13,197 nucleotides of DNA from Promethearchaeota archaeon. GTDB taxonomy: Archaea > Asgardarchaeota > Thorarchaeia > Thorarchaeales > Thorarchaeaceae. The stretch is taken from NCBI GenBank assembly GCA_027031765.1, contig JALVPN010000111.1, positions 1 to 13,197 of the forward strand. Direction: 5' to 3'. Made by a program: the position numbers and the translations under genes. How positions within the stretch are numbered: the first letter of the stretch is position 1; each line of letters begins with the position of its first letter. The notes beneath the pieces are model-generated. The model was not told where the DNA came from and did no database searches. It saw only the letters and a program-made list of their open reading frames with translations. Positions 2,420-4,816 of the stretch are shown piece by piece.

Positions 2420-3175
2420 TCACACACTGACCCGCATGAGGTCTTCGCCAAGGACAGCCCGGACCCCGGTGTCGCCACTCACAGTCGAGAGGACATCGTC
2501 CTTGGAGGCAACGACCTCTGGTGACACGTGTACGAGGACCACCGTCCCGGGGCTGGCCTCGCGCACGACCTCTGCGAGCTCGCTCGGACTCGTGTGTACA
2601 CCTGTGGGCGAGTGGCCGTCCAACCAGTTGCACTCGTGAACTAGGACATCGCAGCCCCGGGCCAGCTCGACCACCTCCGGACACGGTGCCGTGTCGGACG
2701 TGTACACGACCGACCGGCCATCAAGTTCGACCCTGAAGGCACGTGCGTCCATTGGGCCATGCAGTGTCTTGCAGGTTCTGACGGTGAGCGGGTCGAGCCT
2801 GGTCTCGGACACCTCGTCCAGTGGTACCGGTCGTAGCGGGAACTTGGACTGGAGGTACGTGAACGCCGAGTCGAACATCAACCCGGTCCACTCCATCAGC
2901 TGCAGCGGACCATAGACGCACAACTCGTCCGTACGTCCTGCAAGCCACATGCTCTGGTACAGGGTCATGAAGTCCGAGCAGTGGTCGATGTGGAAGTGAC
3001 TGATGAACACAGCGTCGAGTGAAGTCAGGTCTGTGCCGAGCTGTGTGAGCCGGTGTAGCACACCCGAGCCGATATCGAGGAGGACCGAACGGCCAGCGCC
3101 CTGCACCAGGACACCAGACTGGACACGACGGGGGTCTGGGACTGAGGTGCCAGTGCCCAGTAGTGTGATCTCCAT
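2420..3175 (-). CDS. MBL-fold metallo-hydrolase, RNase Z (ElaC)-like, short form lacking most of the flexible-arm/exosite
   Basis: The sequence 'MEITLLGTGTSVPDPRRVQSGVLVQ..RSVLLDIGSGV', 'AVFISHFHIDHCSDF' (HxHxDH metal motif), 'DELCVYGP', 'SVVYTSDTAPCPEVVELARGCDVLVHEC' and 'HTSPSELAEVV...VVLVHVSP' aligns block by block with bacterial RNase Z as I recall it. It is ~40 aa shorter between the 'VYGP' and 'SDT' blocks. The ATG at 3173-3175 is the likely start; an in-frame GTG at 3184 would add 3 aa. Confidence 0.7.
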   Translation of the reverse strand: MEITLLGTGTSVPDPRRVQSGVLVQGAGRSVLLDIGSGVLHRLTQLGTDLTSLDAVFISHFHIDHCSDFMTLYQSMWLAGRTDELCVYGPLQLMEWTGLMFDSAFTYLQSKFPLRPVPLDEVSETRLDPLTVRTCKTLHGPMDARAFRVELDGRSVVYTSDTAPCPEVVELARGCDVLVHECNWLDGHSPTGVHTSPSELAEVVREASPGTVVLVHVSPEVVASKDDVLSTVSGDTGVRAVLGEDLMRVSV

Positions 3176-3211: not shown

Positions 3212-4327
3212 GTGTTCTGGCTGCCGGACACAGCACCAGACAAAATTGAAGTGGTGTGGTGTGCCACGTCTGGTGTGACACGAGCTAGAGAGAAGACCAC
3301 CAGTCATGTCGTCATAATAGATACCGGGTCGGCCCTCACAAAGGCCTGTGTTGCAGGCAGCAGGCCCCTGCAGGCGGCAGTTCTCCGGACGGGAGATGTC
3401 GTGGGCACACCCACAGATGTAGTCCGTGACCAGCACATTGGTAGTGTTGACGCAGTGGCCCGGTTGTGGGGACATGTCATCCGTGTAGGACTGGGCCTCG
3501 ACCCCACGAGTACAGAAGTGGTGGTGAGTGGGCCCGCAGACCCGACCAACGACGATGCGGAGAGGACCGCGGAGGTGCTGTTCGAGGTGCTCGGTGTCAG
3601 GGCGGGCGTGATGGTACAGCGTCCCCTGCTCGCCCTATGGCGACGCCGTACTCTCGAGGGACTCGTAGTGGATGCAGGACACGACAGCACGAGGGGGTGG
3701 CCGGTAGTGGAGGGGCACGTCATCCTTGCCGAGGCGTTCACATACCCTGTTGGTGGGAGGGGCATCGAAGCATACCTGTGCACCCTGCTCAGACAGATGG
3801 GATACACTGTGCCCAAGGACCTGTCGATGGAGGATGTGCGCAGGATGAAGGAGGAGCTGTGCACAGTGCGGCTCACGGGTGCGGAGGGCCCGAAGTACAC
3901 GACCACCGGACAGGACGCATTCACAACTCCCGAGGGCCTTGAGGTCGACCTTGGGCCCATCACCGAGTGTGCGGCCGAACCACTATTCGACCCCGCGGTG
4001 CTCGGCATTGATGAGAGGCCACTTGGAGAGATGGTAGCGGGAGTCATAGGACAGGACAGGGACTTCCTGCTGAAAATCGCGACCACGCGTAACATAGTCG
4101 TGACCGGCGGGATGTCGCTCCTGCCGGGTTACGTTGAACGACTCCGTCATGAGACACGACAGCGTGTAGGGGATGACGTCGAGTTCAAGATGAGGGGGAG
4201 TGAGGACGCGACCATGGACACCTGCATGGGTGGGTACATCTTCGGCACGCTACGTACTACACGCAAGCTGTTGGTCACCAAGGAGCGCCTACGCACAGAG
4301 GGCGCATGGCAACTGTGTCCACTCTAG
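3212..4327 (+). CDS. actin-family ATPase (archaeal actin homologue) that is collinear with eukaryotic actin
   Basis: The translation aligns with eukaryotic actin along nearly its whole length. Each pair below gives our sequence first, then the actin segment:
- 'VVIIDTGSALTKACVAGSRPLQAAV' with '[26 protein letters not shown]' (phosphate-1)
- 'VVVSGPADPTNDDAERTAEVLFEVLGVRAGVMVQRPLLALWRRRTLEGLVVDAGHDSTRGWPVVEGHVILAEAFTYPVGGRGIEAYLCTLLRQMGY' with '[96 protein letters not shown]', at identical spacing
- 'MEDVRRMKEELCTV' with 'REIVRDIKEKLCYV'
- 'ITECAAEPLFDPAVLG' with 'ERFRCPEALFQPSFLG'
- 'NIVVTGGMSLLPGYVERLRHE' with '[21 protein letters not shown]'
- 'GGYIFGTL' with 'GGSILASL'.
About 40 residues of the subdomain-2 D-loop are absent. 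The six-frame start is a GTG at 3212. An in-frame GTG at 3275, ~27 bp downstream of an AT island 'caaaattgaa' (3241-3250), would give a leaderless transcript with the DTGS motif at residue ~15 as in actin. The start is therefore uncertain between 3212 and 3275. Stop is TAG at 4325-4327. Confidence 0.8.
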   Translation: MFWLPDTAPDKIEVVWCATSGVTRAREKTTSHVVIIDTGSALTKACVAGSRPLQAAVLRTGDVVGTPTDVVRDQHIGSVDAVARLWGHVIRVGLGLDPTSTEVVVSGPADPTNDDAERTAEVLFEVLGVRAGVMVQRPLLALWRRRTLEGLVVDAGHDSTRGWPVVEGHVILAEAFTYPVGGRGIEAYLCTLLRQMGYTVPKDLSMEDVRRMKEELCTVRLTGAEGPKYTTTGQDAFTTPEGLEVDLGPITECAAEPLFDPAVLGIDERPLGEMVAGVIGQDRDFLLKIATTRNIVVTGGMSLLPGYVERLRHETRQRVGDDVEFKMRGSEDATMDTCMGGYIFGTLRTTRKLLVTKERLRTEGAWQLCPL

Positions 4328-4608
4328 GAGTCGTGGGATAACAGCACATGGCGCACGGTGTTGACGAGCAGTCGCAGCTCTCGTACAACACGCTCCTTGT
4401 TGCCATTGGGAAACGCCAGTTGACTGATGATGTCCTTGCACGTCACATCACGCACAACGCGCAGCATCGCCATAGAGTCGACGGCAATCCGTCCCGCGTC
4501 CACCTCCCTACATAGGGCCTCGATGTGTTGCGCGAGCACCTGGCCATGGGAGGTGACCACGGTTGTGTCCGCACCCTTTGTAAGGTCGTCAATCAGGCGG
4601 CCTGCCAT
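4324..4608 (-). CDS. Roadblock/LC7 (MglB-like) domain protein, ~94 aa. This is tentative, and the start is uncertain.
   Basis: Translation from the ATG at 4606-4608 is 'MAGRLIDDLTKGADTTVVTSHGQVLAQHIEA...AVDSMAMLRVVRDVTCKDIISQLAFPNGNKERVVRELRLLVNTVRHVLLSHDS'. Size and pattern fit the Roadblock fold: an N-terminal helix, then G-x-x-x-V-V-x-x-x-G-x-V-L, then 'RVVRDV' (Robl has 'ARSTVRDI'). The six-frame ORF extends to a TTG at 4830, but that N-terminal extension is Cys/His/Arg-rich with weaker third-position GC, so I prefer the ATG. The stop TAG at 4324-4326 overlaps the actin stop. Confidence 0.45.
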   Translation of the reverse strand: MAGRLIDDLTKGADTTVVTSHGQVLAQHIEALCREVDAGRIAVDSMAMLRVVRDVTCKDIISQLAFPNGNKERVVRELRLLVNTVRHVLLSHDS

Positions 4609-4816
4609 CGCTTGCAGGTCTGTTAGAAAAGTCTGTGGCTCCACTGGCGCGCGGTGGCTATTATCAGCATACAGACGGTCGTCGTACACCCGGCACACCA
4701 AGTTGTGCCTGTGTCGGCGGTATTTATTCTGTACGATTACTGAAACGGTGTGCTGAGCAAACCGGACTGTCCAGTCCGAGGCTGCTCTCGCATGGCATTT
4801 GACAGGGCAGAAGAGC

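What the first reader, a model, noticed from the sequence alone, without database searches (positions are those of the whole stretch)
3212..4327. Eukaryote-like actin with a deleted D-loop in an archaeal context
This protein aligns to eukaryotic actin with conserved block spacing through subdomains 1, 3 and 4, unlike the distant MreB/ParM-type homologues common in prokaryotes.
- The matching blocks are phosphate-1 'IIDTGSALTKACVAGS', the ~95-residue core 'VVVSGPADP...LLRQMGY' aligned residue-for-residue with actin '[10 protein letters not shown]...ILTERGY', 'EELCTV' with 'EKLCYV', 'EPLFDPAVLG' with 'EALFQPSFLG', 'VVTGGMSLLPGYVERLRHE' with '[19 protein letters not shown]', and the C-terminal 'GGYIFGTL' with 'GGSILASL'.
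- Roughly 40 residues corresponding to the DNase-I-binding loop and subdomain 2 are missing.
- It sits beside a Roadblock/LC7-like gene and opposite an RNase Z-like gene.
Such close actin relatives are characteristic of a few archaeal lineages (crenactin, the Thermoplasma Ta0583 protein, Asgard lokiactins). Which lineage this one belongs to cannot be decided by eye. It may represent a compact, distinct archaeal actin subfamily. The start codon (GTG 3212 versus GTG 3275 with a leaderless-type TATA) also needs resolving.
Basis: partly seen in the sequence, partly recalled or inferred. Interest (0 to 1): 0.78.

Follow-up and report, generated by a model that had tools for sequence, protein, structure and literature searches.

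The report
Orphan divergent actin-related protein in Thorarchaeia
This is a real gene for a very divergent, shortened relative of eukaryotic actin in an Asgard (Thorarchaeia) archaeon; Asgard archaea are already known to carry such actin-related proteins, so it is a new, isolated member of a known kind, not a new kind of cytoskeleton.

Summary

The contig is from Thorarchaeia (Asgard). Its SAM synthetase is 75-83% identical to proteins labelled Thorarchaeota.

The protein is not the conserved lokiactin:
- It is 22.5% identical to human beta-actin.
- No relative above about 36% identity was found among 1.84 billion representative proteins.
- It is the longest branch in a tree of its hits, with no supported sister.

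Subdomain 2 is cut by about 26 residues, not about 40, and the whole D-loop is gone. Most nucleotide-binding residues are kept. Q137 and H161 are both Arg, D157-G158 is His-Asp, and the barbed-end cleft reads WRRRT.

Three related Thor contigs keep the flanking genes and lack this gene, so it is a lineage-specific insertion. Its codon usage matches the host contig.

The neighbour called Roadblock-like is predicted to be an all-alpha four-helix bundle with no Pfam hit. The start codon (3212 or 3275) remains open.

The most likely role is an ATP-binding ARP-like accessory protein, not a canonical filament former. That role is inferred, not shown.

The parts
3212..4327 (+). ORF of 371 aa including the stop codon: a divergent actin/ARP-family protein
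3212..3304 (+). N-terminal 31 residues that lie outside the conserved fold. They may be a disordered extension, or 5' leader if translation starts at GTG 3275.
   Evidence: pLDDT is 46-59 for residues 1-30. The family alignment begins at about residue 32. An SD-like GGTGGT lies 9 nt upstream of 3212. An AAAATT element lies about 30 nt upstream of 3275.
3314..3361 (+). Phosphate-1 loop, IIDTGSALTKACVAGS. It keeps actin D11, G13, S14 and K18; G15 is Ala.
   Evidence: Alignment with human beta-actin and 101 homologues.
3383..3445 (+). Remnant of subdomain 2 (residues 58-78). Actin residues 32-51 (the D-loop) and 58-66 are missing, a net loss of about 26 residues.
   Evidence: Model secondary structure.
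3611..3661 (+). Segment MVQRPLLALWRRRTLEG. Arg replaces the catalytic Gln137. The mouth of the barbed-end cleft reads WRRRT where actin has YASGR.
3665..3694 (+). Phosphate-2 loop, VVDAGHDSTR. D154, G156 and T160 are kept. D157 is His, G158 is Asp and H161 is Arg.
4097..4153 (+). Adenosine motif, VVTGGMSLLPGYVERLRHE. G301, G302, P307 and G308 are kept; T303 is Met.
4324..4701 (-). Context only: a convergent 125-aa gene whose 3' end overlaps the actin 3' end by 4 nt. Predicted four-helix bundle, not Roadblock/LC7.
   Evidence: No Pfam hit. AlphaFold2 all-alpha, pLDDT 74. Foldseek has nothing at E<0.06. In relatives its homologues sit directly next to the MBL gene with no actin between them.
2420..3175 (-). 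Context only: a divergently transcribed MBL-fold hydrolase, an RNase Z / Apyc1-like short form.
   Evidence: Pfam Lactamase_B_2 E=2e-22. NCBIfam RNase_Z 139 bits, below the cut-off of 293.

Best explanation
The gene encodes a real, folded and highly divergent member of the eukaryote-type actin/ARP family in a Thorarchaeia (Asgard) genome. It is not the conserved filament-forming lokiactin. It is an orphan actin-related protein inserted, in this lineage only, between two genes that are adjacent in related Thorarchaeia.

Shown:
- The fold, the family and the host lineage.
- Loss of the D-loop.
- Retention of the residues that hold the nucleotide: P1 Asp/Gly/Ser/Lys, P2 Asp154/Gly156/Thr160, Lys213/Glu214, and Gly301/Gly302.
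- Replacement of the hydrolysis residues Gln137 and His161 by Arg.
- A remodelled barbed-end cleft.

Inferred:
- It still binds ATP, but hydrolyses it differently or slowly.
- Both longitudinal F-actin contact surfaces are changed: the D-loop on the pointed face and the hydrophobic cleft on the barbed face. It is therefore unlikely to build or join canonical actin filaments.
- It more probably acts like a non-canonical Arp, that is, a nucleotide-dependent binding module or accessory factor. It is unlikely to be the main cytoskeletal polymer.
For: Family and fold:
- Pfam Actin at 130 bits is the only significant family.
- Best PDB sequence matches are Hodarchaeales HC1 actin at 4.8e-31, Arp1 at 8e-29, and actins at about 1e-24.
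- AlphaFold2 pLDDT 89, pTM 0.89.
- Foldseek TM about 0.8 to actins.

Host:
- The SAM synthetase on the same contig is 75-83% identical to about 100 proteins. Nearly all the named ones are 'Candidatus Thorarchaeota archaeon'.
- Gene order is shared with Thor contigs.

Orphan status:
- Only a self-hit in the word-indexed search of 5.8 billion proteins.
- In the full HMMER search the best non-self hit is 143 bits, and identities are 24-36%.
- 22.5% identity to beta-actin. Its hits are a median 44% identical to beta-actin but only 25.6% to the query.
- Longest branch, and sister support below 50%.

Native gene:
- Codon usage correlates with the rest of the contig at r=0.89, and GC3 is 0.68.
- Three independent assemblies give the same sequence.

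Insertion:
- In L007 and L011 the p125 homologue sits 50-80 bp from the MBL gene with no actin between them.
- L013 also lacks it.

Residues.

Literature:
- Asgard genomes carry lokiactin plus several ARP-like paralogues with complex gain and loss (PMC9834061).
- Asgardactins fall into five clades (PMC8850707).
Against: - There is only one sequence, so no conservation or dN/dS evidence shows that the gene is under purifying selection.
- No expression data are available.
- The functional reading rests on residue substitutions mapped by alignment, not on a nucleotide-bound structure.
- Crenactin, ParM and MreB polymerise with quite different contacts, so loss of the D-loop does not by itself exclude self-assembly.
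- Positions 157, 158 and 161 also vary among other actin-like hits, so these changes need not abolish ATPase activity.
- No cytoskeleton-related partner gene is nearby.
Confidence: 0.65

Rival explanations
1. It is a compact, self-polymerising cytoskeletal actin. It forms its own filaments through contacts that do not need a D-loop, for a specialised task in this Thorarchaeon.
For: - The four-subdomain fold is intact at high confidence.
- The hydrophobic-plug region has normal length, and subdomains 3 and 4 are collinear with actin.
- Most nucleotide-binding residues are kept.
- Arp1, which forms short filaments, is the second-best solved match.
- Many prokaryotic actins polymerise without an actin-type D-loop (established knowledge; PMC12050087).
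Against: - Both longitudinal contact surfaces of F-actin are altered: the D-loop is deleted and the cleft reads WRRRT.
- The catalytic Q137 and H161, which couple polymerisation to hydrolysis, are replaced.
- A gene present in a single population and absent from syntenic relatives is unlike a core cytoskeletal element.
Confidence: 0.2
2. It is a redundant paralogue drifting under relaxed constraint, with no specific function, on its way to becoming a pseudogene.
For: - Extreme branch length and singleton status.
- Loss of otherwise near-invariant residues. W340 is Cys where 92 of 101 homologues have Trp. R335 is Ala where 86 of 101 have Arg. G74 is Gln where 81 of 101 have Gly.
- It is absent from relatives.
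Against: - The 371-codon frame is uninterrupted.
- Codon usage matches the host.
- The fold is predicted with pLDDT 89, and the invariant glycines G156, G182 and G301 and the P1 and adenosine motifs are intact. A freely drifting sequence this far diverged would not be expected to keep these.
Confidence: 0.12
3. It was acquired by horizontal transfer from a eukaryote, a virus or another mobile element, and did not arise by duplication of an Asgard actin or ARP.
For: - It is inserted into an otherwise conserved gene order.
- Its nearest hits are a taxonomic mixture that includes divergent eukaryotic actin-likes from Owenia, Acrasis, Seminavis, fish, a beetle and a fungus.
- Giant viruses are known to carry actin-like genes (PMC8850707).
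Against: - No hit exceeds about 36% identity, so no donor is identifiable.
- Codon usage and GC match the host.
- There are no flanking repeats and no integrase or viral genes.
- The scan of viral contigs found nothing, though it detects close relatives only.
- The mixed hit list is what long-branch behaviour produces.
Confidence: 0.1
4. It is not an actin at all but another ASKHA-fold protein (MreB, ParM, Hsp70 or a sugar kinase), or a chance ORF.
For: None beyond the shared superfamily fold.
Against: - No Pfam or NCBIfam hit to those families. Salactin scores only 21 bits against a cut-off of 400.
Confidence: 0.01

Closest known systems
Asgard actin-related proteins other than lokiactin ('asgardactins'), for example the three non-lokiactin homologues of Ca. 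Lokiarchaeum ossiferum: UYP47647.1, UYP44711.1, UYP44126.1 (PMC9834061; five clades in PMC8850707)
   Same: A PF00022 actin-fold protein encoded in an Asgard genome. It is much more divergent than lokiactin, patchily distributed, and has a history of gain and loss. The prokaryotic hits among its best matches (for example P0009/P0280 and P0010/P0281, 30% identity) sit in archaeal-looking gene contexts. One hit is labelled Hodarchaeota.
   Different: No clade assignment is possible: it is the longest branch and bootstrap support is below 50%. Identity to any of them is at most about 31%. It also has the D-loop deleted and Q137R / H161R.
Lokiactin / Hodarchaeales HC1 actin (PDB 9wc4)
   Same: Best sequence match among solved structures, E=4.8e-31 over residues 76-365. 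Same fold and same superphylum.
   Different: Lokiactin is reported as about 58% identical to rabbit actin, present in all Asgard lineages and filament-forming (PMC12050087, PMC9834061). This protein is 22.5% identical to beta-actin, lacks the D-loop and occurs in one population only.
Eukaryotic conventional actin and Arp1 (centractin)
   Different: Subdomain 2 is shortened by about 26 residues. The C-terminal HRKCF is missing. The catalytic Gln/His pair is replaced, and the cleft that binds profilin, gelsolin and WH2 domains is changed.
Fast-evolving non-canonical eukaryotic Arps (for example Drosophila Arp53D, PMC8291977)
   Same: A lineage-restricted, rapidly diverged actin paralogue that keeps the fold but not the canonical surfaces.
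   Different: The analogy is evolutionary only. There is no sequence-specific relationship and nothing is known about its function here.
Crenactin (PDB 4bql) and Thermoplasma Ta0583 (PDB 2fsj)

Membership tests
Actin family (Pfam PF00022; actin plus ARPs) | Score above the Pfam gathering threshold | tested here: met
   130.4 bits against a cut-off of 27, E=8.8e-38, covering profile positions 64-396 of 410.
Actin family (Pfam PF00022; actin plus ARPs) | Four-subdomain actin fold, closer to actin and Arps than to other ASKHA families | tested here: met
Actin family (Pfam PF00022; actin plus ARPs) | Nucleotide-binding motifs: phosphate-1, phosphate-2 and adenosine | tested here: met
   D11, G13, S14, K18, D154, G156, T160, K213, E214, G301 and G302 are conserved. 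G15A, D157H, G158D, T303M and K336T are changed. Actual binding was not tested.
Lokiactin / conventional actin orthologues | High identity to eukaryotic actin; about 58% is reported for lokiactin (PMC12050087) | tested here: not met
   22.5% identity over 338 aligned positions.
Lokiactin / conventional actin orthologues | D-loop and a full-length subdomain 2 | tested here: not met
   Actin residues 32-51 and 58-66 are absent. The query has 24 residues between actin positions 30 and 80, against a median of 48.
Lokiactin / conventional actin orthologues | Catalytic Gln137 and His161 | tested here: not met
   Both are Arg.
Lokiactin / conventional actin orthologues | ATP-dependent assembly into double-stranded filaments | not testable with these tools
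   Needs purified protein.
Asgard ARP clades (asgardactins 1-5, PMC8850707) | Supported phylogenetic placement inside one clade | tested here: inconclusive
   Neighbour-joining with 200 bootstraps gives a sister group supported below 50%, and the query is the longest branch. No labelled clade references were available.
Crenactin | Closest structural or sequence affinity to crenactin | tested here: not met
Salactin (NCBIfam NF053533 / PF25229) | Score above the curated cut-off | tested here: not met
   21 bits against 400, and 18.6 bits against 27.1, over a 40-residue stretch only.
MreB / ParM / Ta0583-type prokaryotic actins | Profile match or best structural match | tested here: not met
Roadblock/LC7 (claimed for the neighbour at 4324-4701) | Robl_LC7 profile match and an alpha/beta fold | tested here: not met
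   No Pfam hit at E<=1. The model has four helices and no strands, pLDDT 74 from only 2 sequences. No Roadblock structure appears among the 50 Foldseek hits listed, all at E 0.06-1.0.

The most novel reading that the evidence does not exclude
Thorarchaeia, like animals, spawn lineage-restricted, fast-evolving actin paralogues with new jobs. On this reading the protein is a functional 'orphan Arp' that has lost the D-loop, has put two arginines in place of the catalytic Gln and His, and has a positively charged barbed-end cleft. It would then use ATP binding, not polymerisation-coupled hydrolysis, either to cap or modulate lokiactin filaments or to bind a non-cytoskeletal partner.
Probability: 0.3. 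Interest if true: 0.55.

Novelty: new member of a known kind. Interest (0 to 1): 0.36.

Why it matters
Asgard actins and ARPs are central to arguments about how the eukaryotic cytoskeleton arose. Only lokiactin has been studied experimentally in any depth.

This sequence shows how far an Asgard actin paralogue can drift: 22% identity, no D-loop and a rewired catalytic site. It still keeps a confidently predicted actin fold. It also gives a clean example of a recent gene gain inside a conserved Thorarchaeial neighbourhood.

It could serve as a natural test of which actin features are needed for nucleotide binding as opposed to polymerisation. As a single uncharacterised sequence of a known kind, it does not open a new question on its own.

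Tried and rejected
- **Word-indexed homologue search with the protein.** It returned only the protein itself. That was useful as evidence of orphan status but gave no family.
- **Scan of GTDB species genomes.** The only 'relative' (L003, a Planctomycetaceae MAG) is spurious. The DERPLGEM pattern falls in a 244-aa ORF (L003 9548..10282, +). That ORF overlaps a 302-aa ORF on the opposite strand (L003 9485..10393). It shows no other actin similarity.
- **Viral contig scan.** Nothing found.
- **Literature search for the accessions** (JAGSHO, GCA_029855965, SAMN10217873, SRR13622960, ERZ23491057). No paper found, so the sample's habitat is unknown.
- **Halophile origin.** Rejected: protein pI values range from 4.9 to 9.6 with no acidic proteome signature.
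- **Thermoplasmatota or TACK origin.** Rejected after the SAM synthetase search.
- **Biopython NJ with bootstraps.** It timed out and was replaced by a numpy implementation.
- **Structure prediction of the neighbour with its L007 homologue.** It was redone with window sequences only, so that model is only moderately confident.
- **Foldseek against AFDB50.** Library not available.
- **Review PMC10955848 on archaeal actins.** Not held.
- **Flanking repeats around the inserted gene.** None convincing.
- **tRNA and Rfam scans of the window.** Empty.
- **Third homologous-protein search.** Not spent. Searches already exclude close relatives, so it would not have changed the verdict.
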